Positions 34,865 through 53,676 of a stretch of 64,000 nt of DNA are shown piece by piece. The DNA is from Escherichia phage vB_EcoM_011D4. Each line of letters begins with the position of its first letter. Position 1 is the stretch's first letter. The notes under the pieces were generated by a model. It was not told the DNA's origin, made no database searches, and saw only the letters and a list, made by a program, of their open reading frames with translations. The position numbers were made by a program, and so were the translations under genes. The stretch lies in the sequence record MT478991.1. One strand, 5' to 3'.

Positions 34865-34893
34865 ATTATGATATACACCCTCTGTTATGTCAA
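34865..34893 (-). promoter_or_regulatory. sigma70-type early promoter
   Basis: Minus strand TTGACA-N17-CATAAT then ACACCCATACCGAAACGA leader. Confidence 0.6.
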
Positions 34894-34899
34894 CAACTT

Positions 34900-35079
34900 T
34901 TAGAACATTTTTGAAATTAATTCTGCTTTGATTTCGCAGAGAACATCTAAAGATTTCTCGTCACCTGCTTTTGCGGCTTCTGCTTGCATTTTTGAAATGG
35001 CTTCAATGTCAGTGCAATTATAAGCCGCTTGAACTTTAGCGATTGCGATGATTGCCGATTCGATGGTTAATTGTTTCAT
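34900..35079 (-). CDS. hypothetical early protein (59 aa)
   Basis: ATG after AGGAGAATCAAAC leader; not in ORF track. Confidence 0.45.
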   Translation of the reverse strand: MKQLTIESAIIAIAKVQAAYNCTDIEAISKMQAEAAKAGDEKSLDVLCEIKAELISKMF

Positions 35080-35111
35080 GTTTGATTCTCCTTTCGTTTC
35101 GGTATGGGTGT

Positions 35112-35140
35112 ATTATAGGGGATCGATGATCCCCTGTCAA
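35112..35140 (-). promoter_or_regulatory. early promoter with palindromic spacer (PeSL-like)
   Basis: Minus strand TTGACA-GGGGATCATCGATCCCC-TATAAT. Confidence 0.7.
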
Positions 35141-35148
35141 CAAATTTT

Positions 35149-35667
35149 TTAGTTATTTTTTAATTGCTCATCTTGCAATAGGGCAATCACATGCTGGCGA
35201 TGTTCTTCCGATTGAGGCACACCGAAAAAGTTTGTTTTGTAGAAATACTCTAATCGGTCTTCTCGTGTGCTCTCTTCCATCATGATCGCGGGTAGTCCGA
35301 GATTTCGGAAACGTCGCTTTTCTGCTGGCGTAAAATCACTGTAATACAACATAGAATCATCATTACAAGCAATGCTAAACTCATCCTTCATAAAGGAGAA
35401 TATTGCGTTTAAACGCTGTTTACCGTCCACGATTTCGATCTCATAGCGAGAGCCATCATCAATCTTAGCCATTGCGATAGCACCAACCGGAAAATCATTA
35501 ATCAGGTTTTCGATAAACATACGTTTGTTTTCGGTGTCCCATACTAAAGGACGCTGATAATCTGGGTTCATGTTGATATAGCCATCTTCTAACCATGCAT
35601 CATAAACAGAGATGACAAAGTTTTTAGTATTGGTATAGTAACGGCGTTTAGGCGTTAAACGGTTCAT
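35149..35667 (-). CDS. DUF262 / ParB-like nuclease-domain protein
   Basis: DYQRPLVWD...FPVGAI...IVDGKQRLNAI matches the DUF262 signature; start taken at MNRL with RBS AGGAGA. Confidence 0.65.
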   Translation of the reverse strand: MNRLTPKRRYYTNTKNFVISVYDAWLEDGYINMNPDYQRPLVWDTENKRMFIENLINDFPVGAIAMAKIDDGSRYEIEIVDGKQRLNAIFSFMKDEFSIACNDDSMLYYSDFTPAEKRRFRNLGLPAIMMEESTREDRLEYFYKTNFFGVPQSEEHRQHVIALLQDEQLKNN

Positions 35668-35668
35668 G

Positions 35669-35998
35669 TTATAGTCTCCTGAATGGATCATCACGTAAAT
35701 CAATATCTTTTAAGAACTCATCCCATGAATGGCGGATGTTGTTCTTAATTCTCCAGATAAGAGCAGGGATTGAACGCTCTCCCATCTGGAAGTATGGATC
35801 ATATGATCCGTATGCCCAATATGCTACTACAATTCCACAATCAGCGCAATAGTATTCTATTTCACTTGCTGGCGACCAAAGTCCATCAATATGATCGGTG
35901 ATCTTGCTTTCGATGTTATGGCTATGACAATCAGGGCAACGGATGCAATGACCTTGTTTATCGTAATTTGACGTTAGCGAATACTTAAACAATCTCAT
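35669..35998 (-). CDS. zinc-ribbon protein
   Basis: 109 aa; CIRCPDC...CADC; start/stop coupled with flanking genes. Confidence 0.5.
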   Translation of the reverse strand: MRLFKYSLTSNYDKQGHCIRCPDCHSHNIESKITDHIDGLWSPASEIEYYCADCGIVVAYWAYGSYDPYFQMGERSIPALIWRIKNNIRHSWDEFLKDIDLRDDPFRRL

Positions 35999-36714
35999 TA
36001 TAGATCCTTATTTGCTTCAAATACTGCCTTTGCGAATCCTCGCGGGGTAAGTGACCTTATAGTCTTTGTTTTCGTTCCTTTCCCGCCTAGCTTAGAATGC
36101 TGTTTACTGTACCCTTTATTAATCTGCAACGGTTTCTTTTCTGGCATTATAAAGCCTTGTCCGGTCCATAAGCAAGTCTTTTTCGGGTACATATCACGGG
36201 CGGCAATATACTCAGGAAACGTAGGATGCTTATCATCTTCCGGCAAATAACCGCCATATTCCCACGGATGGAACATGTAATCAGGCTTACGCCACATGCT
36301 AGAGATAACGCTTACAGGATTCTCTATCATGTAGGGAACTCCGAGCCATTCACCCAAATAAGCGGTTATTTTAGCTGCCCGTACATCATGAACTTGAATC
36401 AATGGTCCTTGTTCTCGTTTCTTTCGTTCAAAGTGCGCAGCGCCACTAACAGCTAAATTGGTGCACGGTGGGAATGCAAAGATAATATCCGGTTTCCCCC
36501 ATTCAAGGTCCATTGCTCTTTCCAGCCAGTTCAAATCAATCCAGGTGTTTACATAGGTAATGTTTGGATGTTCAAATCTGGTATTATACTTTTTGTATGT
36601 ACCGTGGTCGGCGTCATCCGCATTAAAGCAGACTACCTTATGACCTGCTTTAGCCCATTCTAGCCCCATTATCCCCGATCCGTCAAAGTTGCAGAATATT
36701 AATTTTTGTTTCAT
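35998..36714 (-). CDS. compact DNA (cytosine-5)-methyltransferase-like protein
   Basis: 238 aa; motif I FDGSG, motif IV FAFPPCTNLAVSG (Pro-Cys), motif VI MIENP, motif IX RSLTPRGF. Confidence 0.6.
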   Translation of the reverse strand: MKQKLIFCNFDGSGIMGLEWAKAGHKVVCFNADDADHGTYKKYNTRFEHPNITYVNTWIDLNWLERAMDLEWGKPDIIFAFPPCTNLAVSGAAHFERKKREQGPLIQVHDVRAAKITAYLGEWLGVPYMIENPVSVISSMWRKPDYMFHPWEYGGYLPEDDKHPTFPEYIAARDMYPKKTCLWTGQGFIMPEKKPLQINKGYSKQHSKLGGKGTKTKTIRSLTPRGFAKAVFEANKDL

Positions 36715-36956
36715 ATACGACCCTTTAACCCAGCACAGATTTTAGTCGGTTCTTTACCGTGCCACATTAAGTAAATTCCGTTAATGCGTCCTTGTTTTGT
36801 ATATGATTCTTTTCTGATCTTCTTATAGTGTCGTGCTTCCTCCGCCGATTGTTTAGAATGTCGGTCATAAAGGAAGAGGAACAAAGGCCAACCATTAGCG
36901 ACCTTAATGCAGTTATTCAAAAATTCCTTATTTCGTTTAATTAATTTTCTTTTCAC
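36711..36956 (-). CDS. hypothetical basic protein
   Basis: 81 aa; ATGA coupling on both sides. Confidence 0.5.
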   Translation of the reverse strand: MKRKLIKRNKEFLNNCIKVANGWPLFLFLYDRHSKQSAEEARHYKKIRKESYTKQGRINGIYLMWHGKEPTKICAGLKGRI

Positions 36957-37204
36957 GCTGCCCCCATTGGTTTGATAGTAACCGAATCTAAAAGACCTTT
37001 GTTAGCCAGTTCGCGGCAAGTTTTCAGATCCGCAACTTCCCAGCCAGCCGCAATCAGGTTATCAATGAGGCTGTTAGCAACTTCTTCGCTCATGAAAGAG
37101 CACTGTTTGCCGATGGTGTAGCGCACACGCTGTAATTTCAGTTTACGGAAGCCTTTAACGTTCAGGTCTTTAGCGATTTTCTTTGCGGTTTCGATGTTAG
37201 CCAT
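36953..37204 (-). CDS. hypothetical protein (first gene of operon)
   Basis: 83 aa directly behind promoter. Confidence 0.5.
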   Translation of the reverse strand: MANIETAKKIAKDLNVKGFRKLKLQRVRYTIGKQCSFMSEEVANSLIDNLIAAGWEVADLKTCRELANKGLLDSVTIKPMGAA

Positions 37205-37244
37205 TGTTTGATTCTCCTAAGTGGTATCTCGTCTTGATGGTTGT

Positions 37245-37273
37245 ATTGTAGGGGAGTTATCCTCCCCTGTCAA
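37245..37273 (-). promoter_or_regulatory. early promoter with palindromic spacer (PeSL-like)
   Basis: Minus strand TTGACA-GGGGAGGATAACTCCCC-TACAAT. Confidence 0.65.
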
Positions 37274-37287
37274 CACTTTTTATAAAA

Positions 37288-37455
37288 TTATTTGTTAATT
37301 TCTGGTGCGTTGCTAGGATAGTAACCTTCTTTAACTCCGAGGTATTTCGCAACCATCCCTACAATCTTCTGTGCTACTACAATGTCAAATTTCAGATAAT
37401 CTTCACCGTAGGTTTCAATGATATATGCTTCACATGCTGCTTTAGTCTCGAACAT
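37288..37455 (-). CDS. hypothetical protein, paralogue of 40544..40711 (copy 1)
   Basis: 55 aa MFETKAACEAYIIETYGEDYLKFDIVVAQKI.GMVAKYLGVKEGYYPSNAPEINK; not in ORF track. Confidence 0.5.
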   Translation of the reverse strand: MFETKAACEAYIIETYGEDYLKFDIVVAQKIVGMVAKYLGVKEGYYPSNAPEINK

Positions 37456-37488
37456 TTTGATTCTCCTATTTCGTTTCGGTATGTGTGC

Positions 37489-37517
37489 ATTATAGGGGAT
37501 CTCCCGATCCCCGTCAA
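37489..37517 (-). promoter_or_regulatory. early promoter with palindromic spacer (PeSL-like)
   Basis: Minus strand TTGACG-GGGATCGGGAGATCCCC-TATAAT. Confidence 0.65.
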
Positions 37518-37530
37518 CAACTTTTTTAAA

Positions 37531-37812
37531 TTATTCGTGATTAGTTTCGATGTTGTGCATTTTGCACCAGTTCAGCCAATCGCCAAGATCTTGATAGTTG
37601 ATGCTTTTATCTGCTGCCATCGTTTTTGTCTTGATACCCATATGTGCGTTATGAGTAAGCATTTTTACAGTGAACTCGATTTTATCGCCTTTAGCTTTAA
37701 CATCAACCAGTTTGGTCCACTGGCTACCAGCGCCGCGAATGTTCATACCAACGATGTTTCCGATGTATGCTTCTTTGTTTTTCAGGATTTCGGTTGCTTT
37801 GATGAATTTCAT
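37531..37812 (-). CDS. hypothetical early protein
   Basis: 93-aa ORF behind consensus promoter/leader. Confidence 0.5.
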   Translation of the reverse strand: MKFIKATEILKNKEAYIGNIVGMNIRGAGSQWTKLVDVKAKGDKIEFTVKMLTHNAHMGIKTKTMAADKSINYQDLGDWLNWCKMHNIETNHE

Positions 37813-37845
37813 TTTTGATTCTCCAGTTCGTTTCGGTATGGGTGT

Positions 37846-37874
37846 ATTATGCTATGTTCTTACTTTGGTGTCAA
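37846..37874 (-). promoter_or_regulatory. sigma70-type early promoter
   Basis: Minus strand TTGACA-N17-CATAAT. Confidence 0.6.
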
Positions 37875-37881
37875 CAACTTT

Positions 37882-38151
37882 TTAGATATTTTCAGAAATA
37901 AATTTTAAAACTTGACGTAAATGTTTCTCATCTTTGATAGTCGCCGGAAGTTCTTCTTTTACTTCCTGTGCAAGATAGATATTTCCGTTCCAAGTGAAAG
38001 ATCCGTCTTCGTTTACGAGATAGCTGAACATCCACTCGCAATCATTTTCGATTTCATATACACACAGAAGGGTGTAATCGTTAAAGCTATTGATTTCAAG
38101 GTCGAAGCCGTGACGTTTTGCAAAGTTGGTAGTGGTTTTAGTCAGTGCCAT
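37882..38151 (-). CDS. hypothetical early protein
   Basis: 89-aa ORF behind consensus promoter/leader. Confidence 0.5.
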   Translation of the reverse strand: MALTKTTTNFAKRHGFDLEINSFNDYTLLCVYEIENDCEWMFSYLVNEDGSFTWNGNIYLAQEVKEELPATIKDEKHLRQVLKFISENI

Positions 38152-38191
38152 TGTTTGATTCTCCTAAGTGGTATCTCGTTTCGATGGGTGT

Positions 38192-38220
38192 ATTATGCTA
38201 TAGGCGTGTTCTGGTGTCAA
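38192..38220 (-). promoter_or_regulatory. sigma70-type early promoter
   Basis: Minus strand TTGACA-N17-CATAAT. Confidence 0.6.
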
Positions 38221-38279
38221 TTCTTTTTTTAAAAAATTTTATGCAATAAAAAAGCCGACGCTAAGGTCGGCTAATAAAA

Positions 38280-38588
38280 TCATTTAGACAAATAATCATT
38301 CTGTGCAATCCGGTCGGCGTATGCTGGTGTTACGTCAATCGCAATCACTTTAACGCGTGCTTTCTTGCGACCTGGGTTTTCTCGTAACCAGTGCTCATGA
38401 CCGTGCACATTTTTATACTTTGATGCTTCTTCGAAGGTACGGATCGGACCTGGGTAATCAGCGTAAAGGATCTCTAGATCTTCGGTGATGTAAAAATATA
38501 CATCGTAATTGCTGTTCTCTAGCTTAAGCAGAGACTTTCGGAACATTGGGAGATTTTCGCGGGTAAATTCAAAGATATTATCTTTCAT
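38280..38588 (-). CDS. HxHW-family small protein (paralogue A)
   Basis: Start at internal MKDNIF with RBS GAGGA; motifs YFYITEDLEIL, HGHEHW, VIAIDV. Confidence 0.5.
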   Translation of the reverse strand: MKDNIFEFTRENLPMFRKSLLKLENSNYDVYFYITEDLEILYADYPGPIRTFEEASKYKNVHGHEHWLRENPGRKKARVKVIAIDVTPAYADRIAQNDYLSK

Positions 38589-38611
38589 AGTATTATCCTC
38601 AATAGTTGGAT

Positions 38612-38633
38612 GAAAAGGGGGCTTAACGCCCCA
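38612..38633 (-). terminator. intercistronic terminator-like hairpin
   Basis: Minus strand GGGGCGTTAAGCCCCC + TTTT. Confidence 0.5.
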
Positions 38634-38637
38634 TATA

Positions 38638-38925
38638 TTAAAACAGTCCTTCCTGTACACCGTAATAGAGTTCGTCGCTGATAATTTCATTAATGCGACG
38701 GTGTGCATATTCCTGATTTGCGAAGTTGTCAGCAAGTTCTACTTTAGTTTCTCCGTCATGAGTCCATTTAGTGATAACTTTACCATCTGCAAATTTGAAG
38801 TTGAACTCTTTAGCTACCGCATCGCGTACCAGACGTGCAAACTTATTGTTGCGGATTGCATTGTCGGTTTCGTGTGCAGCGTGAGCGAATTTGTTAACTT
38901 TCAGAGTGATAGTAATGTATGCCAT
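38638..38925 (-). CDS. hypothetical protein, paralogue of 41912..42223
   Basis: 95 aa; shared NAI.IR..R.A.AKEFN.K segment. Confidence 0.5.
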   Translation of the reverse strand: MAYITITLKVNKFAHAAHETDNAIRNNKFARLVRDAVAKEFNFKFADGKVITKWTHDGETKVELADNFANQEYAHRRINEIISDELYYGVQEGLF

Positions 38926-38971
38926 AATTTGATTCTCCTAGTTAGAAAGTGTATCTCGTTTCGATGGGTGT

Positions 38972-39000
38972 ATTATGCTATACACCCGACCTCATGTCAA
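38972..39000 (-). promoter_or_regulatory. early promoter with stem-loop over the -10 (PeSL-like)
   Basis: Minus strand TTGACA-N17-CATAAT; GGGTGTAT..ATACACCC inverted repeat. Confidence 0.6.
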
Positions 39001-39006
39001 CACTTT

Positions 39007-39285
39007 TTATAAAATAATTTTTTGATATTTTTCTATGATGTTTGTGTAGGTCACATCAACCGCTAGCACCGTTGCTTCGAATCCACCGTCTAGCCAATGG
39101 CTATGATCTCTTTCATCAAAGAAGCCGAGGCCAATACGAAGACCATCCTTAAACTCTGCGCGTACATTTAGATCATCATCGATAAACAGATAAAACCATG
39201 AATTTTTACTAGGATTGATGATACAACCTTTCAGATTAGGGAGAATATCACGACTAAGAATAAACTTATCACCTACTTTGAACAT
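39007..39285 (-). CDS. HxHW-family small protein (paralogue B)
   Basis: Start at MFKVGDKF; FYLFIDDDLNV, HSHW, VLAVDV. Confidence 0.5.
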   Translation of the reverse strand: MFKVGDKFILSRDILPNLKGCIINPSKNSWFYLFIDDDLNVRAEFKDGLRIGLGFFDERDHSHWLDGGFEATVLAVDVTYTNIIEKYQKIIL

Positions 39286-39299
39286 AATATTTTCCTCAC

Positions 39300-39608
39300 T
39301 TATAAAGTTTGACCGTTGTTTTTCGCGTAATGCTGAATGCGTGCTTGATCTGCTTCCGCTGGTGATAGATTCCATGCGATCACTACAACTTCTGACGCAT
39401 CATGATCATTATCACTTACCCAATGATTGTGATTCATACAGTTATTTGCTATCGCGTGAGAAAATGATTTCATCACTGGAGACGTATAATCATAGTAACG
39501 GATTTTCAGATTTTCATCAACGTACAAATAGATCGTATAAGGTTTATATTCAGTAACCAGTAACAGACAGTTACGCAATTCTGGGAAAATCTTTTTAGTT
39601 AATTTCAT
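39300..39608 (-). CDS. HxHW-family small protein (paralogue C)
   Basis: 102 aa; YLYVDENLKI, HNHW, VVVIAW. Confidence 0.5.
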   Translation of the reverse strand: MKLTKKIFPELRNCLLLVTEYKPYTIYLYVDENLKIRYYDYTSPVMKSFSHAIANNCMNHNHWVSDNDHDASEVVVIAWNLSPAEADQARIQHYAKNNGQTL

Positions 39609-39810
39609 ATTCTAGTTCTCCGTAATACACAGTAATCCATTTTTCTTCATACTTTGTATCTTTCCAGCACACAATCCCGTTTACTGTGCAATCTTTGGAA
39701 TTGACGAATGATTCATATTGTTCTGCATCTTCCATCATTGCATGAGCGGTCTTTTCATCGAATATATCGCAGATCGCTTTATATGCTCGATAATCTTTAA
39801 ATTTGCTCAT
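39595..39810 (-). CDS. hypothetical protein, tandem paralogue 1 (MSKFKDYRAY)
   Basis: Listed ORF starts at a TTG; ATG at 39810; about 50% identical to the next gene. Confidence 0.45.
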   Translation of the reverse strand: MSKFKDYRAYKAICDIFDEKTAHAMMEDAEQYESFVNSKDCTVNGIVCWKDTKYEEKWITVYYGELEYEIN

Positions 39811-39812
39811 AA

Positions 39813-40028
39813 TTAACACCAATCAAGAGTTTTTGAGAAAACCTCTATCCATTGTTGAGTATATGCGGTTTCTTTCCATGACACAATACCAGTCGAATAA
39901 TGGTTTTTGTTTCCAGAAAAGGACGGGCATTTTGATGCATCTTCCATCATCTTTTCGGCGAACTCTGGTGCGTATACTCGCAAAATCTGTTGATATGCTT
40001 TGTATTCTTTAAATTTGCTCATAATCAT
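39813..40028 (-). CDS. hypothetical protein, tandem paralogue 2 (MIMSKFKEYKAY)
   Basis: 71 aa; shares MSKFK.Y.AY, MMEDA, GIV.WK.T.Y with the neighbour. Confidence 0.45.
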   Translation of the reverse strand: MIMSKFKEYKAYQQILRVYAPEFAEKMMEDASKCPSFSGNKNHYSTGIVSWKETAYTQQWIEVFSKTLDWC

Positions 40029-40287
40029 TCACTACCTTATCAGCTTCTTTTGTTGTTTTTACATCAACTGCGATAACTCGTAAAGGTTCGTCATGGTTCC
40101 ACCAGTGGTCATGAATATCGGCTTGTGATTTATCACCAAAGGAATCACGAATATCATTTTTACATTTATAGCTAATGTGACCGTCATAGTCAACATAAAG
40201 GTAATTATCGAAAATCGGCGTTTTTAAGATCATACCGAAAAATCTTTCTTTGTGTGTCTTATCCAGCGTTGCAGTAATTCGCATCAT
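40009..40287 (-). CDS. HxHW-family small protein (paralogue D)
   Basis: 92 aa; YLYVDYDGHISY, HDHWW, VIAVDV. Confidence 0.5.
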   Translation of the reverse strand: MMRITATLDKTHKERFFGMILKTPIFDNYLYVDYDGHISYKCKNDIRDSFGDKSQADIHDHWWNHDEPLRVIAVDVKTTKEADKVVNDYEQI

Positions 40288-40299
40288 AATATATTCCTC

Positions 40300-40479
40300 T
40301 TAGAAAGGGATGGTCATTTCTTGAGCTTGTACATTCTCGTTAGGATTAAACTTCATCCAACCGATATTGTCTACCAGCATATGCACATTTTTATCATATC
40401 CTACGTGGGTAGTCAATACTGTATGTGCTTTACCTTCAATGATGAGTTCCATGTACTTCTGAACTTCGATAGCTTTCAT
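40300..40479 (-). CDS. hypothetical early protein (59 aa)
   Basis: ATG after GGAGAATCAAA leader; not in ORF track. Confidence 0.4.
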   Translation of the reverse strand: MKAIEVQKYMELIIEGKAHTVLTTHVGYDKNVHMLVDNIGWMKFNPNENVQAQEMTIPF

Positions 40480-40511
40480 TTTGATTCTCCGTTTGTTGTC
40501 TTTATGGGAGT

Positions 40512-40540
40512 ATCTTACTACTCCCTTTAATCATTGTCAA
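40512..40540 (-). promoter_or_regulatory. early promoter with stem-loop (PeSL-like)
   Basis: Minus strand TTGACA then GGGAGTAGTAAGATACTCCC hairpin; -10 approximate (TAAGAT). Confidence 0.5.
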
Positions 40541-40543
40541 CTA

Positions 40544-40711
40544 TTATTTGTTAATTTCTGGTGCGTTGCTTGGATAGTAACCTTCTTTAACACCCAGATA
40601 TTTTGCAACCATTCCGGTGATCTTCTGTGCTACTACGATATCGAATTTCAGGTAGTCTTCACCGTGGTTTGCTACAATGTATGCTTCGCATTCTGCTTTA
40701 GTCTGGAACAT
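40544..40711 (-). CDS. hypothetical protein, paralogue of 37288..37455 (copy 2)
   Basis: Starts at internal Met MFQTKAECEAY of listed ORF 40544..40747; near-identical C-terminus to copy 1. Confidence 0.5.
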   Translation of the reverse strand: MFQTKAECEAYIVANHGEDYLKFDIVVAQKITGMVAKYLGVKEGYYPSNAPEINK

Positions 40712-40745
40712 TTTTGATTCTCCTATATCTCGTTGGTATGTGTGC

Positions 40746-40774
40746 ATTATAGGGGATCACAGATCCCCTGTCAA
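40746..40774 (-). promoter_or_regulatory. early promoter with palindromic spacer (PeSL-like)
   Basis: Minus strand TTGACA-GGGGATCTGTGATCCCC-TATAAT. Confidence 0.7.
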
Positions 40775-40779
40775 CAACT

Positions 40780-41073
40780 TTATAATGCTTTATATGCGTA
40801 TTTCATAAATTTGTCTGCCACTTCATTGGCATGTTCAGATTCTACGCCTGATTCGAGAACAATAGCTAGGTCGGTTTCGTCATTCCCGCCGTACCAATGA
40901 TTTGATGTTCGATTTTTTTCAATTGGAAATTGGTCACTTTTATCTGTGCGACAAAATACATCTAAATGCTCGTCTATGTAAAAGATCCAATCCTCATAAA
41001 GAATAACGGTATTAGCCAGATTTTTATTGCCTTCAACGAAAGGTTCAGCTACAAATAGCTTAGTTTGTTCCAT
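40780..41073 (-). CDS. HxHW-family-like small protein (paralogue F, divergent)
   Basis: Start at MEQTKLF with RBS GAGGA; IFYIDEHLDVF, NHWY. Confidence 0.4.
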   Translation of the reverse strand: MEQTKLFVAEPFVEGNKNLANTVILYEDWIFYIDEHLDVFCRTDKSDQFPIEKNRTSNHWYGGNDETDLAIVLESGVESEHANEVADKFMKYAYKAL

Positions 41074-41089
41074 AGTAATTTCCTCAAAA

Positions 41090-41281
41090 TTATACAGCTT
41101 CGTAAACTTCCCAATGTCCAACACCAGCACGCTTAACGAAAAGGTTTTCTTTGATGTTATTCATAAACGTCTGGATGGATTTAATGCGGTTGGAAGGTTT
41201 CCAGTCTTCGTTAGCATTGCGGCGATACATTATAACATTACCAGATCGCTTATATTCAGCAACCATTTTAAGACCACACAT
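41090..41281 (-). CDS. hypothetical protein
   Basis: 63 aa, RBS GAGGA; preceded by GGGAG..CTCCC hairpin. Confidence 0.4.
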   Translation of the reverse strand: MCGLKMVAEYKRSGNVIMYRRNANEDWKPSNRIKSIQTFMNNIKENLFVKRAGVGHWEVYEAV

Positions 41282-41337
41282 AATATTATCCTCAATTTGT
41301 GGGAGAGTATTACCCTCCCAATTATTGTTATACTACA

Positions 41338-41640
41338 TTACGCAAAATGGCGTGTCAATGCTTCTTTTGCTGTTCCGCTAAGATTCTCGATCTCTCCTGG
41401 CATAACATCAACCGCCAGAACTTCTACAACATCCTCTGATCCTAACCAGTGAGTATGACCTTTGTAGAACTTGATATCCCATTTAACGCTATCGCTAGCC
41501 CACCACACATCACCGTCGATAAAGTTGATGTAAAGCACACTACGCCACATTGAATTAATTACTTTCAATACTGCGCCTTTCATCTCTTCCACGGTATGGT
41601 CTTCCATTTTGAAGACCTCACCTACCTGAACTTTTGCCAT
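41338..41640 (-). CDS. HxHW-family small protein (paralogue E)
   Basis: 100 aa; YINFIDGDVWW, HTHW, VLAVDV. Confidence 0.5.
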   Translation of the reverse strand: MAKVQVGEVFKMEDHTVEEMKGAVLKVINSMWRSVLYINFIDGDVWWASDSVKWDIKFYKGHTHWLGSEDVVEVLAVDVMPGEIENLSGTAKEALTRHFA

Positions 41641-41657
41641 TTAGTCACCTCTCTTTA

Positions 41658-41837
41658 TTACATAACAATCACGCCAGCCGTTGAAAGTTGATGTTTCAAC
41701 TGAGCATTTTCTGCTACCGTCAAATCAATGATTTCTTGTGACGCTGCAATCATATAGCCATTGGTGATATTGTTTTGCATCAGTTCAATGGTTTCTTCGT
41801 TGTAGCGGATTTTAGCGATGATTTCGTTGAAGTTCAT
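41658..41837 (-). CDS. hypothetical early protein (59 aa)
   Basis: ATG after GGAGAATCAAT leader; not in ORF track. Confidence 0.4.
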   Translation of the reverse strand: MNFNEIIAKIRYNEETIELMQNNITNGYMIAASQEIIDLTVAENAQLKHQLSTAGVIVM

Positions 41838-41871
41838 AATTGATTCTCCTAGTTCGTTTCGGTATGTGTGT

Positions 41872-41901
41872 ATTATAGGGGAGTTTAACCTCCCCTGTCA
41901 A
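41872..41901 (-). promoter_or_regulatory. early promoter with palindromic spacer (PeSL-like)
   Basis: Minus strand TTGACA-GGGGAGGTTAAACTCCCC-TATAAT. Confidence 0.65.
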
Positions 41902-41911
41902 CAACTTTTTT

Positions 41912-42223
41912 TTAAAGTTTTTCCATGATAACGGTCATAATTACATCTTCTGCGCGAGCGGTCAGATTATCAGCGTCAGCATGTGGGCGGTTGGTTGTTA
42001 CAGAGATAACACCGTTGCGCACTGGTTTGATATTGATATCAAGATGATCCGCGAAACGTTCGCCAGTTACAGAATGAATTTTGGTGTTAAATTCTTTTGC
42101 CAGTGCCTTGCGAACTTCACGAATCAGGATAGCGTTTTTCAGTTGGTTCTCTGCGCTCATGGTCTTCTGGGTGTTCATGGTTCCGTCGAAGTCAATCATT
42201 GGCAGCGTTACGATGTATTTCAT
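41912..42223 (-). CDS. hypothetical protein, paralogue of 38638..38925
   Basis: 103 aa; shared NAI.IR..R.A.AKEFN.K segment. Confidence 0.5.
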   Translation of the reverse strand: MKYIVTLPMIDFDGTMNTQKTMSAENQLKNAILIREVRKALAKEFNTKIHSVTGERFADHLDINIKPVRNGVISVTTNRPHADADNLTARAEDVIMTVIMEKL

Positions 42224-42268
42224 TTTTTATTCTCCGTTTAAGAAAGTGTGTTTCGTTTTGATGTGTGT

Positions 42269-42297
42269 AGTATAGGGGATCGGTGATCCCCTGTCAA
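42269..42297 (-). promoter_or_regulatory. early promoter with palindromic spacer (PeSL-like)
   Basis: Minus strand TTGACA-GGGGATCACCGATCCCC-TATACT. Confidence 0.65.
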
Positions 42298-42310
42298 CAA
42301 CTTTTTTGAA

Positions 42311-45651: not shown

Positions 45652-45692
45652 AATTTTATTACCTCTTCAAATCAATACAGTTTAATGATGAA

Positions 45693-49992: not shown

Positions 49993-50017
49993 TATCCTTT
50001 CCTCACGTCACAACAAA

Positions 50018-50035: not shown

Positions 50036-50042
50036 CACCTTA

Positions 50043-50441: not shown

Positions 50442-50474
50442 CTTGATACTCCTTAGTTGTTTTGGTATGGGAGT

Positions 50475-50503
50475 ATCTTACTACTCCCGTGATATACTGT
50501 CAA
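50475..50503 (-). promoter_or_regulatory. early promoter with stem-loop (PeSL-like)
   Basis: Minus strand TTGACA then the same GGGAGTAGTAAGATACTCCC hairpin as at 40505. Confidence 0.5.
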
Positions 50504-50511
50504 CTGCTTTT

Positions 50512-50661
50512 TTATGCAACCGCAAACATCAACATTTGAACATTCTTGGCTGTATGGCTTTCAAAGTTCTGACATTCTTTGATAATGTCCTCTACTTTCT
50601 CGCCGGAGATCTCCGCGTAAGTTTCGATTGCCATTTTCAGTACCGCGTCAAAGTTGTTCAT
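50512..50661 (-). CDS. small hypothetical protein (49 aa)
   Basis: ATG after GGAGAATCAAA leader; not in ORF track. Confidence 0.35.
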   Translation of the reverse strand: MNNFDAVLKMAIETYAEISGEKVEDIIKECQNFESHTAKNVQMLMFAVA

Positions 50662-50699
50662 TTGATTCTCCTTAAAGTGTATTTCGTTTCGATGGGGGT

Positions 50700-50728
50700 A
50701 TATTACTACCCCCGTTTCATGCTGTCAA
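50700..50728 (-). promoter_or_regulatory. early promoter with stem-loop (PeSL-like)
   Basis: Minus strand TTGACA; GGGGGTA..TACCCCC hairpin covers the -10 region. Confidence 0.45.
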
Positions 50729-50947
50729 CTACTTTTTAATGACAAGTTCAAATTTTGCTACTTTGCGTCCGCGTTTATTGAAAGCCACCCACGGACGGTT
50801 TTCAATGTAGAACAACTCTTCACCTATAATGAATACTGGCTGATTGTAAAGGCGACCCATCAGGTCACGCTGGCGAATGGTAGTAGATTCGTATACTTCG
50901 CCTACTACAAAGTGTTTGCTGATAGAGTCGGTGCAAGTAAATTTCAT
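50729..50947 (-). CDS. hypothetical early protein
   Basis: Start at internal MKFTCTD after GGAGAATCAAA leader. Confidence 0.45.
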   Translation of the reverse strand: MKFTCTDSISKHFVVGEVYESTTIRQRDLMGRLYNQPVFIIGEELFYIENRPWVAFNKRGRKVAKFELVIKK

Positions 50948-50980
50948 TTTGATTCTCCTTTGTTTCGTTTCGATGGGAGT

Positions 50981-51009
50981 ATTATGCAATACTCCCTAAT
51001 GTGTGTCAA
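50981..51009 (-). promoter_or_regulatory. early promoter with stem-loop (PeSL-like)
   Basis: Minus strand TTGACA-N17-CATAAT; GGGAGTATT..AATACTCCC hairpin spans the -10. Confidence 0.6.
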
Positions 51010-51173
51010 CTGCCTTTTTGAAAGTTTTCTGCTTTTCTTAGGTGAAATTTCGAGGAATAAAAATTAAAGTCTTCCTCTTTCACGATACTAATTGACGTTG
51101 CAAGGTTTTCGTCCCAATGGTTGATGATATAGAGATTTCCTTCCGCTCTAAAATACCAACGTTGTTCTTTCAT
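51006..51173 (-). CDS. small hypothetical protein (55 aa)
   Basis: RBS GAGGTG 3 nt before ATG; not in ORF track. Confidence 0.35.
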   Translation of the reverse strand: MKEQRWYFRAEGNLYIINHWDENLATSISIVKEEDFNFYSSKFHLRKAENFQKGS

Positions 51174-51182
51174 GTTCACCTC

Positions 51183-51350
51183 TTAGCTAAACCAGATTTT
51201 ACCATCGTTAGATACTTCGCAGATCAGGCGATTGCGCCATGTGCAGAAGTAAACACGTCCGAATTTACCTTCACCTGCATCGTGCTCGAAAGTAACGCCT
51301 TTGTTTTTCTTAGCCATGTTGCAAGCCTGACGATAAGTTAAAGTTTTCAT
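51183..51350 (-). CDS. small hypothetical protein (55 aa)
   Basis: ATG after GGAGAATCAAA leader; not in ORF track. Confidence 0.4.
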   Translation of the reverse strand: MKTLTYRQACNMAKKNKGVTFEHDAGEGKFGRVYFCTWRNRLICEVSNDGKIWFS

Positions 51351-51383
51351 TTGATTCTCCTTAAAGTGTGTTTCGATGTGCGT

Positions 51384-51412
51384 ATTATGCTATGACAAGA
51401 TCCGATTGTCAA
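51384..51412 (-). promoter_or_regulatory. sigma70-type early promoter
   Basis: Minus strand TTGACA-N17-CATAAT. Confidence 0.6.
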
Positions 51413-51459
51413 CAGCCAATAACAAAAAAGTCGCCACTATGGGCGACTTTGAACAAACA

Positions 51460-51936
51460 TTAATCATGACCGTGATTTGCAATATCCGCTCGCGTCTTAT
51501 CTTTGTGATTTCCTACGTCAAAGACACGATAACCATTTTCACGCAAAACTTTAATCACTTCTGGGTTATCCTCAAAGACTCCGACAACTTCATCTTTATC
51601 AAAGGATTTAATTACCTCTAATTTGATGTGATAGTCTTTACGGGAATCGGTACGGCCTCTCATAAAGATTTTATCAAAACACACCCCGTTAGAAATTAAC
51701 CAATCAATTGTTTCCATGTAAGCATGTGAACTTCGTCCGGTGAGGATGTAAATCAAATGCCCGTTGTCGGAAAGAGCATTAATAACACGAATTACATCGT
51801 AAATGGGGGAATCTCCCCCACATGCCTTGTTATATTCGACCCATGACTCGACTTTATCAAGATTTTCGGTTGGCATCTTTGCTAGTCGATGTGTTGGATC
51901 TGTGATCGTAAAATCTAAATCGACAAAATATATCAT
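51460..51936 (-). CDS. HAD-superfamily phosphatase-like protein
   Basis: 158 aa; motif I FVDLDFT, motif II ILTGR, Lys and acidic motifs downstream; ATGA coupling to nrdB. Confidence 0.55.
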   Translation of the reverse strand: MIYFVDLDFTITDPTHRLAKMPTENLDKVESWVEYNKACGGDSPIYDVIRVINALSDNGHLIYILTGRSSHAYMETIDWLISNGVCFDKIFMRGRTDSRKDYHIKLEVIKSFDKDEVVGVFEDNPEVIKVLRENGYRVFDVGNHKDKTRADIANHGHD

Positions 51937-53093
51937 AGATATTTCCCGAATCGGTTGTAGTCATTGTCTGTTAAATCGGTATTAACCTGAGATACCAGAT
52001 ACATAATCTCTACTTCCTGCGCTGCATTCTGTACTTCGTCAGAGTTCAACCATTTACGCATCCACGGTAACGGATGACGACGAACACTAAACGGGCTTTT
52101 CAGTCCGGCAGCACGCATACGGGAATCTGCCAGGTATTCTACATAGGTTTTCAGAATTTCCGGTGACAGGTTAGGAATTGCCCCCATTGCGAATAGGTGG
52201 TCTACCCATTCTTTTTCTTGCTCGACAACATCCAGAAAGATTTTCGTTGCTTCGCCTTCAAGTTCTTCCGCAATCTGTTTCCACTCATCACCATCAACCC
52301 CCGTTTGCCATTGACGAATAATGTATTGTGTGCCTTTTAAGTGAAGTTGTTCATCACGCGCAATAAATTTCATGATCTTCGCGTTACCTTCCAGTAAACC
52401 ACGTTCGGCAAAGCTGAAAGTACATGCAAATGACACATAAAAACGAATTGCTTCCAGTGCATTTACGCAGTGTGCACACAGATAAATCGAAGCCATCAGA
52501 TCTCGTTTTGTGTCTTCAAAAAATCTTCTTGCATCATCTAATGCTGTCTGATCGTCTCGTTCTTCCCAATAGCGGAGTTCTTCTTTTGCATTCTCATACT
52601 TACGAATCCAATAAAGAACATCATCATAATATTGCCCGATAGATTCCGCTCGCTTCATGATAGCAGGGTTATCGATGATCTGGTCGAACTCACTAGCCGG
52701 ATCAATGAAACAGTTACGCATAATGTGTGTATAGCTTCGGCTATGAATCGTTTCGCTGAATGTCCATGTTTGCAACCATGTATCGAGAGTTGGATCAGAT
52801 ACAATTGGACCAAATGCTGCGGACGGTGCGCGACCTTGAATAGAATCAAGTAATGTCTGATACTTCAAGTTTTCAGTAAAGAAACGCTTTTCAACGTCAC
52901 CCATATTAAGATATTGAATGCGGTCGGTTGCAAGTGAAATTTCTTCGGGGCGCCAGAAAAATGACAATTGCTTTTCGATCAGTTCTTCAAATACTTGATG
53001 ACGCTGAATATCATAGCGAGCGATACCCAACCCACTACCCAGAAACATTGGTTCGTTCATAATATCAACATGTTCGCGGTTAAATACGCTCAT
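51933..53093 (-). CDS. nrdB: ribonucleotide reductase small subunit NrdB
   Basis: 386 aa; di-iron/tyrosyl radical R2 fold; T4 NrdB-like. Confidence 0.93.
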   Translation of the reverse strand: MSVFNREHVDIMNEPMFLGSGLGIARYDIQRHQVFEELIEKQLSFFWRPEEISLATDRIQYLNMGDVEKRFFTENLKYQTLLDSIQGRAPSAAFGPIVSDPTLDTWLQTWTFSETIHSRSYTHIMRNCFIDPASEFDQIIDNPAIMKRAESIGQYYDDVLYWIRKYENAKEELRYWEERDDQTALDDARRFFEDTKRDLMASIYLCAHCVNALEAIRFYVSFACTFSFAERGLLEGNAKIMKFIARDEQLHLKGTQYIIRQWQTGVDGDEWKQIAEELEGEATKIFLDVVEQEKEWVDHLFAMGAIPNLSPEILKTYVEYLADSRMRAAGLKSPFSVRRHPLPWMRKWLNSDEVQNAAQEVEIMYLVSQVNTDLTDNDYNRFGKYL

Positions 53094-53108
53094 TAATTCA
53101 CCTCACTA

Positions 53109-53276
53109 TCACTTTTTAACACAAAAGAACTTAGTATTTCTGTTAACTTCGCTATCCTGCTGCAATTCCTGCACAGCTTCAAAACAATTTTGATGTGATG
53201 AAAACTCTACGCTGGTAACAGTTCCTTTATTATATGATCCTACGCTAACGGAAAGCAATAACCATAATGTAGCCAT
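53109..53276 (-). CDS. small signal-peptide-like protein, tandem paralogue 1
   Basis: 55 aa MATLWLLLSVSVGS...; TAATG coupling; not in ORF track. Confidence 0.4.
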   Translation of the reverse strand: MATLWLLLSVSVGSYNKGTVTSVEFSSHQNCFEAVQELQQDSEVNRNTKFFCVKK

Positions 53277-53449
53277 TAGTTCACCTTTTGTTTTTCAACG
53301 CAATATAGATTCATAAAGCGTTTATTGTCTTCACGGATAATCTCGCGAGCTTTAACGCAATCCTGCTTTGTGGAAAATTCAATGCTTGACATATTTCCGT
53401 AATTATACATTGAATTGCTTATTGCAATCAATAACCATACAGTAGCCAT
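53276..53449 (-). CDS. small signal-peptide-like protein, tandem paralogue 2
   Basis: 57 aa MATVWLLIAISNS...; coupled to neighbours. Confidence 0.4.
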   Translation of the reverse strand: MATVWLLIAISNSMYNYGNMSSIEFSTKQDCVKAREIIREDNKRFMNLYCVEKQKVN

Positions 53450-53616
53450 TATCCGACAACCTCAAAACATTTATCATCAGGAAGAATAGCCCATTCTACG
53501 CCGTATTCATCCTTAACGTAGTAGCAAGTCCCATCATGTCGAGCATCATATTCATCACCGACAACAAAGCTATCAGCTAGTTCAAAATCTACAGCAACAC
53601 ATTTTAATTTGGTCAT
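53449..53616 (-). CDS. small hypothetical protein
   Basis: Start at internal MTKLKCVAV with RBS GAGGA; listed ORF start would overlap the promoter. Confidence 0.4.
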   Translation of the reverse strand: MTKLKCVAVDFELADSFVVGDEYDARHDGTCYYVKDEYGVEWAILPDDKCFEVVG

Positions 53617-53647
53617 AATAAAATCCTCACTTGTTTTTGATGGTTGT

Positions 53648-53676
53648 ATTATAGCGGGGATTTCTCCCCGCGTCAA
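53648..53676 (-). promoter_or_regulatory. early promoter with palindromic spacer (PeSL-like)
   Basis: Minus strand TTGACG-CGGGGAGAAATCCCCGC-TATAAT. Confidence 0.65.

What the first reader, a model, noticed from the sequence alone, without database searches (positions are those of the whole stretch)
34865..53676. Repeated early-promoter/stem-loop modules (PeSL-like) bounding nearly every small gene of the hyperplastic region
At least 19 minus-strand intergenic sites carry one ~70-bp module: TTGAC(A/G), a 16-18 nt spacer, (T/C)ATAAT, then a conserved leader ACACCCATACCGAAACGA...AGGAGAATCAAA-ATG. In about 11 of them a GC-rich inverted repeat lies in the spacer or over the -10 (GGGGATC-N3/4-GATCCCC at 35118, 37495, 40752, 42275; GGGGAG..CTCCCC at 37251 and 41878; GGGAGTA..TACTCCC at 40505 and 50468; CGGGGA..TCCCCG at 53654). 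Sigma70 does not need such a hairpin, so it may be an operator for a dimeric regulator, an RNA hairpin for read-through transcripts, or a recombination hotspot that shuffles gene cassettes. It resembles the promoter-early-stem-loop elements reported for RB49-group T4-like phages. The conserved GGAG Shine-Dalgarno is also the motif cut by T4 RegB endoribonuclease.
Basis: partly seen in the sequence, partly recalled or inferred. Interest (0 to 1): 0.6.

Follow-up and report, generated by a model that had tools for sequence, protein, structure and literature searches.

The report
Known PeSL promoter/stem-loop cassettes in Krischvirus
The repeated ~70-bp promoter/hairpin/leader module is real, but it is the already published "PeSL" regulatory cassette of RB49-type T4-like phages, found here in the same genome region where PeSLs were first defined.

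Summary
The window is a Krischvirus (RB49/Phi1/GEC-3S group) genome, 94-98% identical to known ones. Region 34.8-53.7 kb is the minus-strand hyperplastic region between alt and nrdA, orthologous to RB49/phi1 ORF185-233. Arbiol et al. 2010 defined and tested promoter-early stem-loops (PeSLs) in this region.

The module is real, with corrections:
- There are 16 copies in the stated range, not 19 or more.
- 13 of the 16 carry a stable hairpin (ΔG -12 to -15 kcal/mol), not about 11.
- They occupy 16 of 49 gene junctions, not "nearly every" one.

Each copy is AT-rich, then TTGACA, a 17-nt spacer, a -10, an invariant CAT (inferred +1), an unstructured 25-40-nt leader, GGAGAATCAAA and ATG. Every hairpin ends upstream of the inferred +1, so only read-through RNA contains it. 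Three stem positions show compensatory changes.

Across 11 relatives, cassette gains and losses use 12 of 16 module junctions against 8 of 33 others. Six deletion junctions are chimeric single modules whose crossover lies in the shared -10-to-leader tract.

Small additions to the literature:
- Two of the three hairpin-less modules have a canonical terminator just upstream.
- The conserved SD 11-mer matches the T4 RegB/S1 target consensus at 10-11 of 11 positions in 12 of 16 modules, against 0 of 34 other genes.

Verdict: already known; low interest.

The parts
34829..34899 (-). PeSL 186|185: -35 at 34893, CATAAT -10; hairpin GGGTGTAT/ATACACCC overlapping the -10; leader plus GGAGTATCAAA
   Evidence: (ΔG -12.1, z -3.9)
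35080..35148 (-). PeSL 187|186: hairpin GGGGATC-ATC-GATCCCC fills the 17-nt spacer
   Evidence: (ΔG -12.8)
37205..37287 (-). PeSL 191|190: spacer hairpin GGGGAG-GATAA-CTCCCC, TACAAT -10
   Evidence: ΔG -13.6
37456..37530 (-). PeSL 193|191: spacer hairpin GGGGATC-GGGA-GATCCCC. ORF192 (RB49, G2494) or another gene (JSE) is inserted at this site
   Evidence: ΔG -13.9; Arbiol 2010 Fig. 3 example
37813..37881 (-). PeSL-type promoter/leader 194|193 with no hairpin and no terminator
   Evidence: ΔG 0.0
38152..38279 (-). Promoter/leader 197|194 without a hairpin, preceded by the canonical terminator GCCGACCTTAGCGTCGGC-TTTTTT (38253-38272). ORF195/196 is inserted here in RB49 and JK32
38926..39006 (-). 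PeSL 199|198: hairpin GGGTGTAT/ATACACCC over the -10. The orthologous stem in Phi1/RB49 is GGGGATAT/ATATCCCC, with two compensated pairs
   Evidence: (ΔG -13.9)
40480..40543 (-). PeSL 205|204: hairpin GGGAGTA/TACTCCC over the TAAGAT -10
   Evidence: (ΔG -11.9)
40712..40779 (-). PeSL 206|205, orthologue of the PeSL206/205 tested as a promoter by Arbiol 2010: spacer hairpin GGGGATC-TGT-GATCCCC. It is one end of the 13-gene deletion in phage Cognac
41838..41911 (-). PeSL 210|209: spacer hairpin GGGGAG-GTTAAA-CTCCCC (18-nt spacer). Breakpoint of the ORF210+211 deletion in ELT3, SFHK24, AV108 and JK32
   Evidence: ΔG -13.9
42224..42310 (-). PeSL 211|210, orthologue of the PeSL211/210 whose stem-loop was tested as a terminator: GGGGATC-ACC-GATCCCC, TATACT -10. 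Its SD GGAGAATAAAA matches the RegB/S1 consensus 11/11
50442..50511 (-). PeSL 226|225: hairpin GGGAGTA/TACTCCC over the -10
   Evidence: (ΔG -11.9)
50662..50728 (-). PeSL 227|226: hairpin GGGGGTA/TACCCCC over the TAATAT -10
   Evidence: (ΔG -14.0)
50948..51023 (-). PeSL new-b|227: 9-bp hairpin GGGAGTATT/AATACTCCC over the -10; the -35 overlaps the stop codon of the upstream gene
   Evidence: ΔG -12.8
51351..51459 (-). Promoter/leader 229|new-a without a hairpin, preceded by the canonical terminator GTCGCCCATAGTGGCGAC-TTTTTT (51427-51450)
53617..53684 (-). PeSL nrdA|233: spacer hairpin GCGGGGA-GAAA-TCCCCGC; divergent leader and a GAGG SD (weakest profile match)
   Evidence: E 2.7e-6; ΔG -15.1, z -5.7
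41282..41358 (-). Possible 17th, divergent PeSL (208|207): TTGACA-17-TAGTAT followed by hairpin GGGAG..CTCCC downstream of the -10. It has no conserved leader and no GGAG
   Evidence: not picked up by the profile
32417..32490 (-). Outside the finding: PeSL-like site downstream of alt. TTGACT-17-TATACT with a long hairpin over the -10, followed by TTTTCTG
   Evidence: ΔG -26.7 for the -45..+47 stretch around the -35 that was folded
59290..59793 (-). Outside the finding: two related promoter/leader modules (-35 at 59731 and 59348). The first is preceded by a canonical terminator; neither has an internal hairpin
   Evidence: (E 2.9e-9 and 8.5e-5)

Best explanation
These are PeSLs (promoter-early stem-loops), the composite regulatory cassettes described for the RB49/phi1 group of T4-like phages, in a new isolate of the same genus.

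Each module fills the whole intergenic space in front of a small early gene. It has four parts:
(1) An AT-rich tract and a near-consensus sigma70 promoter (TTGACA, 17 nt, TATAAT or CATAAT) that host RNA polymerase uses immediately after infection. The start is inferred at the A of an invariant CAT, 7 nt after the -10.
(2) A G-rich/C-rich hairpin placed in the spacer or across the -10 and discriminator. It always lies upstream of the module's own +1, so it exists only in RNA read through from the upstream gene. There it attenuates or terminates that transcript, insulating each cassette and keeping the promoter from being occluded.
(3) A short unstructured A-rich leader.
(4) A strong SD, GGAGAATCAAA, followed by ATG.

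About 25 nt running from the end of the -10 into the leader (ATAAT-ACACCC-ATACCGAAACGA), plus the -35 region, are shared between copies. The modules therefore also serve as patches of homology at which the phage recombination system deletes, inserts or swaps the flanked ORFan cassettes.

Basis of each step:
- Shown here: the anatomy, hairpin stability, stem covariation, breakpoint association and chimeric junctions.
- Shown in the literature for orthologous elements: promoter activity (PeSL206/205), terminator-like activity of the PeSL211/210 stem-loop, and mini-circle formation.
- Inferred: the +1 position, attenuation at every copy, and RegB cleavage of the SD.
For: Identity of genome and locus: 94-98% nucleotide identity to Krischvirus genomes. 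The region is collinear with RB49/phi1 ORF185-233.

Published definition matched feature by feature:
- sigma70 consensus with a 17-nt spacer;
- AT-rich upstream tract, SD and ATG;
- Gn-loop-Cn hairpins either in the spacer or over the -10;
- intergenic position before ORFans.

Hairpins: 13 of 16 have ΔG -11.9 to -15.1 kcal/mol, z -2.3 to -5.7. Compensatory pair changes occur at three stem positions across 34 distinct copies (UA/GC/AU, GC/AU, GC/AU). All hairpins end at -1 or at -12/-13 relative to the inferred +1. Two of the three hairpin-less modules have a canonical hairpin+T-tract terminator in the same intergenic region, against 0 of 13 hairpin-bearing ones.

Recombination: against 11 relatives, 12 of 16 module junctions are rearrangement breakpoints compared with 8 of 33 other junctions (Fisher p = 0.001). 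After loss of ORF186, ORF191 or ORF226 the single remaining module is a chimera: upstream part from the upstream module, downstream part from the downstream module, with the switch in the shared -10-to-leader tract. The 13-gene deletion in Cognac joins the 206|205 module to the ORF191 coding sequence. The new-a/new-b cassette, flanked by modules on both sides, replaces ORF228 and occurs in only 2 of 50,697 phage records.
Against: - The hairpins have no T-tract. A generic terminator scan and the ARNold/GEC-3S annotations of relatives call only the canonical terminators, never the PeSL hairpins. "Terminator" therefore rests on one published lacZ assay of one stem-loop.
- One module (194|193) has neither a hairpin nor a terminator.
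- No transcript-end data exist for any Krischvirus in the searchable library.
- The breakpoint association could partly reflect selection for self-sufficient cassettes rather than a mechanistic preference. The copies are homologous, so the statistics over copies are not independent.
- 8 non-module junctions also rearrange: homing-endonuclease inserts, the ORF189.1 deletion and others.
Confidence: 0.9

Rival explanations
1. The palindromes are DNA operators or targets for a dimeric DNA-binding protein: a repressor of early promoters, or a recombinase or helper protein that recognises GGGG...CCCC.
For: Seven copies carry 6-7-bp perfect inverted repeats exactly between -35 and -10, where a bound protein would block RNA polymerase. 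[quoted passage not shown]
Against: - Arm sequences differ: GGGGATC, GGGGAG, GCGGGGA, GGGTGTAT, GGGGATAT, GGGAGTA, GGGGGTA.
- Loop length ranges from 3 to 6 nt.
- The position shifts from the spacer to the -10/discriminator.
- Pairing, not sequence, is conserved: three positions change on both sides.
- Single mismatches in core stems are mostly G.T on the sense strand (6, against 1 A.C), which suits a folded sense strand rather than duplex recognition.
- The mapped crossovers lie downstream of the hairpin, in the longest shared tract, as plain homology predicts.
Confidence: 0.08
2. The hairpins do not stop transcription. They act after transcription on read-through RNA, as 3'-end protectors or processing sites, or they act as DNA cruciforms that modulate the promoter or initiate recombination.
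For: There is no U-tract after any PeSL hairpin (UAUAAUAC or AUACCGAA follows the stem). The published assay measured lacZ output, which does not separate termination from RNA cleavage or decay. The phage group encodes RegB, endonuclease VII and Dmd.
Against: Hairpin-less modules are paired with true intrinsic terminators, which suggests the hairpin substitutes for a terminator. The reduction in the reporter was comparable to rrnB T1. None of this excludes a dual role.
Confidence: 0.25
3. The modules are simply strong early promoters with insulators. Gene content changes at them because only promoter-equipped cassettes survive insertion or deletion (selection), not because recombination is favoured there.
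For: Modules sit only in front of dispensable ORFans. Non-module junctions also rearrange (8 of 33). Several events have only one end at a module, e.g. the ORF211 and ORF210+211 deletions, whose other end is at 42676.
Against: Six junctions are precise chimeras of two modules, with the switch inside 20-25 nt of shared sequence and no extra bases. The Cognac junction has the same form. Arbiol et al. recovered the predicted reciprocal mini-circles by PCR and sequencing.
Confidence: 0.2

Closest known systems
PeSLs (promoter-early stem-loops) of coliphages RB49 and phi1 (Arbiol et al. 2010, PMC2839356)
   Same: Same genus, same genome region (ORF185-233), same architecture: AT-rich tract, TTGACA-N17-TATAAT, Gn-loop-Cn stem-loop in the spacer or over the -10, then SD and ATG. 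Same association with ORFan indels. The window contains orthologues of the tested PeSL206/205 and PeSL211/210, and the single PeSL at the ORF192 insertion site.
   Different: Nothing categorical. This isolate has its own cassette complement, e.g. the new-a/new-b cassette in place of ORF228, and ORF211 present as in RB49. The papers do not mention the match to the RegB/S1 consensus or the pairing of hairpin-less modules with canonical terminators.
PeSLs/PmSLs of T4/PST and KVP40/nt-1 (Comeau et al. 2014, PMC4122927)
   Same: Composite promoter plus stem-loop plus SD elements in hyperplastic regions, linked to indels between close relatives.
   Different: Those elements use T4-type or Vibrio-phage promoter consensus (TTTACW / TTGYVH) and AT-richer stems (A3-4G3...C3T3-4, AGNA...TCNT), usually upstream of the promoter. 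Here the promoter is near-perfect sigma70 and the stems are G/C-rich inside the promoter.
T4 RegB/S1 cleavage sites in early-gene Shine-Dalgarno regions (Durand et al. 2006, PMC1702504)
   Same: An 11-nt single-stranded GGAG plus A-rich element, consensus GGAGRAYARAA. Modules carry GGAGAATCAAA (10/11) or GGAGAATAAAA (11/11) in unstructured leaders of early genes. RB49 encodes a RegB that cleaves GGAG/GGAU.
   Different: Position 8 is C rather than the preferred A in most copies. RB49 RegB is divergent from T4 RegB and its sequence preference is not defined. No cleavage data exist for these sites.
Intrinsic (Rho-independent) terminators
   Same: A GC-rich hairpin immediately after a stop codon; one orthologous hairpin reduced downstream reporter expression as much as rrnB T1 did.
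   Different: No U-tract follows the stem. Genuine intrinsic terminators with T-tracts occur elsewhere in the same region (38272, 38632, 45316, 48419, 50036, 51450).
Morons and integron gene cassettes (analogies drawn by Arbiol et al.)
   Same: Small accessory genes move as units together with expression signals; conserved boundary elements mark the exchange points.
   Different: No integrase or attC-type site-specific recombination is present. Exchange appears to be homology-driven between the repeated regulatory modules themselves.

Membership tests
PeSL (RB49/phi1 type) | Near-consensus sigma70 promoter TTGACA-N17-TATAAT | tested here: met
   All 16 have TTGAC(A/G). The spacer is 17 nt in 15 copies and 18 nt in one. 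The -10 is TATAAT, CATAAT, TACAAT, TATACT, TAAGAT or TAATAT. The strict pattern gives 17 matches against 0.88 expected.
PeSL (RB49/phi1 type) | Stable Gn-loop-Cn stem-loop within or adjacent to the promoter (between -35 and -10, or overlapping the -10, being the commonest subclasses) | tested here: met
   13 of 16: 7 in the spacer, 6 over the -10. ΔG -11.9 to -15.1 kcal/mol, z -2.3 to -5.7. Covariation. Three copies lack it.
PeSL (RB49/phi1 type) | AT-rich tract upstream of the -35, starting at the stop codon of the upstream gene | tested here: met
   Consensus TAAAAAAGTTG before TTGACA; the stop codon lies 0-15 nt upstream.
PeSL (RB49/phi1 type) | Shine-Dalgarno and start codon of the downstream gene at the 3' end | tested here: met
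   GGAG in 15 of 16, GAGG in one; ATG in all.
PeSL (RB49/phi1 type) | Located mainly in hyperplastic regions, immediately upstream of ORFans | tested here: met
   All 16 lie between alt and nrdA, before genes of 49-132 aa annotated as hypothetical in all relatives.
PeSL (RB49/phi1 type) | Insertions, deletions and replacements between close relatives occur at the elements | tested here: met
   12 of 16 module junctions against 8 of 33 others (p = 0.001). Chimeric junction modules.
PeSL (RB49/phi1 type) | Promoter and attenuator/terminator activity; formation of mini-circles | not testable with these tools
   Published for the orthologous PeSL206/205, 193/192 and 211/210 and for ORF192/ORF210 mini-circles. 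Not measured for this isolate.
Intrinsic terminator | GC-rich hairpin followed directly by a U-rich tract | tested here: not met
   None of the 13 module hairpins is called on the sense strand by the hairpin+T-run scan. The six canonical terminators in the region are called.
RegB/S1 target site (T4) | GGA(G) followed by an A-rich 7-mer, consensus GGAGRAYARAA, in single-stranded RNA of an early transcript | tested here: met
   12 of 16 module genes score at least 10/11 against 0 of 34 other genes. Leader MFE is 0 to -2.6 kcal/mol. This is a sequence match only.
RegB/S1 target site (T4) | Cleavage between GG and AG by the phage RegB in vivo, stimulated by S1 | not testable with these tools
   RB49 has regB (RB49p094) and cleaves its own GGAU SD. 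No data exist for PeSL leaders. regB lies outside this window.
Operator of a dimeric repressor | One conserved palindromic sequence at a fixed position and with fixed half-site spacing | tested here: not met
   At least seven different arm sequences, loops of 3-6 nt and two positions relative to the -10. Pairing is conserved through compensatory change.

The most novel reading that the evidence does not exclude
The PeSL is a complete on/insulate/off unit. Besides the sigma70 promoter and the read-through-blocking hairpin, its conserved GGAGAATCAAA is a built-in RegB/S1 cleavage site. Every ORFan that travels with a PeSL would then automatically inherit early expression and also RegB-mediated translational shut-off. 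The PeSL papers never mention RegB. A second small point is that hairpin and canonical terminator appear interchangeable: modules that lost the stem have a T-tract terminator next to them.
Probability: 0.4. Interest if true: 0.3.

Novelty: already known. Interest (0 to 1): 0.15.

Why it matters
PeSLs are one of the few concrete mechanisms proposed for modular shuffling of accessory genes in large lytic phages. This window adds a further Krischvirus genome and an 11-genome comparison, and both agree with the published model: chimeric junction modules, with crossovers in the -10-to-leader tract. That is confirmation, not discovery. The only new leads are modest. A near-consensus RegB/S1 site is part of the conserved cassette, and stem-less copies are backed up by canonical terminators. 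It also remains unresolved how hairpins without a U-tract could terminate transcription.

Tried and rejected
- G.U strand test by comparing MFE folds of sense and antisense 47-mers. It was confounded by peripheral pairs added outside the core stem, so I dropped it. The core-stem mismatch count gives 6 sense G.T against 1 A.C. That is only suggestive, and 8 further "A.C" calls were artefacts of extending the stem outward.
- Generic sigma70 scan. 65 loose matches against 58 expected, so it is uninformative overall; only the 11-12/12 matches correspond to the modules.
- Rfam over the whole window: no family at gathering threshold.
- tblastn of a T4 RegB sequence written from memory against the window: only noise. 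The recalled sequence was not validated, so I draw no conclusion from it. I used the RB49 annotation instead, which places regB outside the window's span.
- Desplats et al. 2002 (RB49 promoter mapping, PMC135041) is not held. A search for Krischvirus transcript-end data found nothing relevant.
- A single covariance model for all copies was not built. The hairpins occupy at least three registers relative to the promoter, so I tested each register separately.
- The first automatic chain for Cognac placed a breakpoint at 205|204. Three-way alignment showed the true junction is the 206|205 module joined to ORF191.

Full report
**What the window is.** Megablast of 34800-42500 and of 34000-54500 finds 60-90 phage records, all Krischvirus (RB49, Phi1, JSE, GEC-3S, ECD7, ELT3/4 and others), at 94-98% identity. 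Annotated regions from 11 relatives show what the finding spans. It is the minus-strand block between alt (32498-34549) and nrdA (53685-55928), collinear with RB49/phi1 ORF185-233. The block contains two ORFan stretches (34.6-42.7 kb and 50.0-51.4 kb), separated by the conserved genes 30, 31, cd, pseT, rnlA and denA.

- The strict pattern TTGAC-N15-19-TAYAAT occurs 17 times in the window against 0.88 expected from shuffles.
- A profile HMM built from the copies finds 15 minus-strand matches in 34.8-51.4 kb at E = 1e-13 to 1e-19. There is a weaker one at 53687 and two related ones at 59744 and 59350, outside the stated range.
- A junction-by-junction census gives 49 gene junctions from alt to nrdA. 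16 carry the module. 25 are overlapping or separated by less than 20 nt. 5 have only a canonical hairpin+T-tract terminator. 3 have something else.

So the count is 16, not at least 19, and "nearly every small gene" is too strong. The aligned consensus is TAAAAAAGTTG-TTGACA-17 nt-(T/C)ATAAT-ACACC-CAT-(AC)CGAAACGA-variable-GGAGAATCAAA-(0-3 nt)-ATG.

**Hairpins.** Folding the 47 nt from the -35 onward gives a stable hairpin in 13 of 16 copies (ΔG -11.9 to -15.1 kcal/mol; z -2.3 to -5.7 against dinucleotide shuffles).
- Seven fill the promoter spacer (GGGGATC-N3/4-GATCCCC, GGGGAG-N5/6-CTCCCC, GCGGGGA-GAAA-TCCCCGC).
- Six span the end of the spacer, the -10 and the discriminator (GGGTGTAT/ATACACCC, GGGAGTA(TT)/(AA)TACTCCC, GGGGGTA/TACCCCC).

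The three copies without a hairpin are at 37874, 38220 and 51412. The last two each have a canonical terminator with a T-run in the same intergenic region (38253-38272 and 51427-51450). None of the 13 hairpin-bearing modules does.

**Is the pairing selected?** From the window and 11 relatives I collected 175 copies, giving 96 distinct 47-mers. In the two -10-overlapping registers, 94% and 97.5% of cells pair, against 27-76% when the partner is slid by 1-3 columns. Three positions change on both sides: UA/GC/AU, GC/AU and GC/AU, with G.U intermediates. At the orthologous 199|198 site the window has GGGTGTAT/ATACACCC where Phi1 and RB49 have GGGGATAT/ATATCCCC, which is two compensated pairs. These sets were chosen for having a hairpin, and copies are related, so the shuffle counts overstate significance. 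The compensatory changes themselves are unambiguous. Single mismatches in core stems are G.T on the sense strand in 6 distinct copies and A.C in 1, which weakly favours folding of the sense strand.

**Position relative to the transcript.** All 16 copies have an invariant CAT whose A lies 7 nt after the -10. That is the usual distance and the usual pyrimidine(-1)/purine(+1) context for a sigma70 start, so +1 is inferred there. Every hairpin ends at -1 (over-the-10 class) or at -12/-13 (spacer class). It is therefore absent from the module's own mRNA and present only in RNA read through from the upstream gene. The leaders are 25-40 nt long and essentially unstructured (MFE 0 to -2.6 kcal/mol).

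**Literature.** Arbiol et al. 2010 (PMC2839356) describe exactly this in phi1 and RB49. About 50 repeated motifs per genome lie mostly in hyperplastic regions upstream of ORFans. Each has an AT-rich tract, a sigma70-consensus promoter, a Gn-loop-Cn stem-loop (most often between -35 and -10 or overlapping the -10), an SD and a start codon.
- PeSL206/205 drove about 13,000 Miller units of lacZ.
- The stem-loop of PeSL211/210 lowered downstream lacZ as much as rrnB T1.
- Recombination between flanking PeSLs was proposed to delete or insert ORFans such as ORF192.
- The predicted mini-circles were recovered, one with a crossover between the SD and the -10.

Comeau et al. 2014 (PMC4122927) extend the concept to the T4/PST and KVP40/nt-1 pairs, with different consensus sequences. 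The window contains the orthologues of PeSL206/205 (40712-40779) and PeSL211/210 (42224-42310), and the single PeSL at the ORF192 site (37456-37530). Rfam has no family for these elements.

blastn chains of the window against the 11 relatives give these events.
- Both ends in or within 10 nt of modules:
  - loss of ORF186 (ECD7, JK32, Cognac);
  - loss of ORF191 (JK32);
  - insertion of ORF192 (RB49, G2494) or another gene (JSE) at 37525-37535;
  - insertion of ORF195/196 at 38173-38271 (RB49, JK32);
  - loss of ORF226 (five phages);
  - replacement of 50738-51370 (ELT3, AV108);
  - replacement of 51018-51370 (new-a/new-b here, ORF228 in seven relatives; GEC-3S and Cognac show a related replacement starting at 50966, also within the new-b|227 module; in ELT3 and AV108 the segment falls inside the larger 50738-51370 replacement).
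- One end at a module: loss of ORF211 or of ORF210+211, with the other end at 42676.
- Not at modules: loss of ORF189.1, a 265-bp insert at 41640, part of a JSE replacement (39043-39804), and homing-endonuclease inserts at 45674-45700 and 53087-53448.

By junction, 12 of 16 module junctions are used against 8 of 33 others (Fisher p = 0.001). Three-way alignments cover the loss of ORF186 (three phages), ORF226 (two phages examined) and ORF191. In each case the single remaining module takes its AT-rich tract, -35, hairpin and -10 from the upstream module. Its distal leader, SD and ATG come from the downstream one. The switch falls inside the shared ATAAT-NCACNC-ATACCGAAACGA tract, which is the longest run of identity between copies. 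In Cognac a 13-gene deletion (ORF193-205) joins the 206|205 module to the coding sequence of ORF191, an 87%-identical paralogue of ORF205. These junctions are what homologous exchange between modules predicts, and they match the published crossover position.

**Mechanism and its weak point.** The best-supported reading is the published one. Each module restarts transcription with a strong host-type promoter and blocks what arrives from upstream. Its conserved sequence doubles as a recombination linker.

The weak point is termination. No PeSL hairpin is followed by a T-run. The generic scan, the ARNold annotation of G2494 and the GEC-3S annotation call only the canonical terminators. The pairing of stem-less modules with true terminators argues that the hairpin does a terminator-like job. 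Whether that job is termination, pausing, or RNA processing and stabilisation is not settled by one lacZ assay.

The operator idea fits poorly. Arm sequence, loop length and position all vary, while complementarity is kept.

**The RegB remark.** Durand et al. 2006 (PMC1702504) define the T4 RegB/S1 target as 11 nt of single-stranded RNA, GGAGRAYARAA (ideal GGAGAAUAAAA). The module SD is GGAGAATCAAA (10/11), and for ORF210 it is GGAGAATAAAA (11/11). 12 of 16 module genes score at least 10/11, against 0 of 34 other genes in the region. The copies are homologous, so this is one conserved feature rather than 12 independent events. The 11-mer stays fixed while its distance to the ATG varies. RB49 encodes a divergent RegB that cleaves its own GGAU SD. 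regB (RB49p094) is annotated at 51.6 kb of RB49, outside this window. Neither PeSL paper mentions RegB. So it is a reasonable but untested inference that PeSL-driven mRNAs are RegB substrates.

**Verdict.** The interpretation as PeSL-like is right, and the elements are the known PeSLs of this very phage group. Novelty: already known. Interest is low. The RegB/S1 match and the hairpin/terminator complementarity are small additions worth a line in a Krischvirus transcriptomics study.

Noticed in passing
window 51006-51350 (-): A two-gene cassette (new-a 55 aa, new-b 57 aa) flanked by PeSLs occupies the site where the nine relatives whose alignments resolve it (all but ELT3 and AV108, which carry a larger replacement there) have ORF228. 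The segment occurs in only 2 of 50,697 phage records: ELT4 at 100% and E26 at 99.4%.
   Followed up: partly
window 37288-37455 and 40544-40711 (-): ORF191 and ORF205 are 87%-identical paralogues, each preceded by a spacer-class PeSL. Phage Cognac has a 13-gene deletion between them.
   Followed up: yes
window 38280-41640 (-): A family of small paralogous ORFans (ORF197, 199, 200, 203, 208; 25-34% identity). By eye they share an H-x-H-W motif, and most share V-[IL]-A-[IV]-D-V. They lie mostly in a translationally coupled block without PeSLs. ORF201/202 (43%) and ORF231/232 (40%) are tandem duplicates. Function unknown.
   Followed up: partly
window 41282-41358 (-): The 208|207 intergenic region has TTGACA-17-TAGTAT followed by a hairpin GGGAG..CTCCC downstream of the -10, with no conserved leader. 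It may be a PeSL of the rarer "stem-loop after the -10" subclass, in which case the hairpin would sit in the 5' UTR.
   Followed up: partly
window 32417-32490, 59290-59793 and about 19000-19080 (-): Further promoter/terminator composites outside the finding. At 32480 a long hairpin lies over the -10 and is followed by a T-run. At 59731 and 19037 a canonical terminator is followed directly by a consensus promoter. At 59348 there is a promoter plus a CATCGAAACGA leader.
   Followed up: partly
window 35118-35134, 37495-37512, 40752-40768, 42275-42291 (-): Four spacer hairpins contain two GATC sites each. RB49 encodes a Dam methyltransferase (RB49p063), so these promoter spacers would be Dam-methylated. 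GATC is not avoided in the window (387 observed against 232 expected). Any effect on the promoter or the hairpin is unknown.
   Followed up: no
window 45674-45700 and 53087-53448; L005, L008, L004, L007, L009: Relatives carry HNH or homing-endonuclease genes inserted between genes 31 and 31.1 (ECD7, G2494) and downstream of nrdB (JSE, SFHK24, AV108, G2494). The window lacks them. These rearrangements are independent of PeSLs.
   Followed up: partly
window 36713-36940 (-): ORF189.1 is deleted in JSE and JK32, with a 16-bp overlap at the junction and no PeSL nearby. This looks like a microhomology deletion inside the coupled dcm operon.
   Followed up: no
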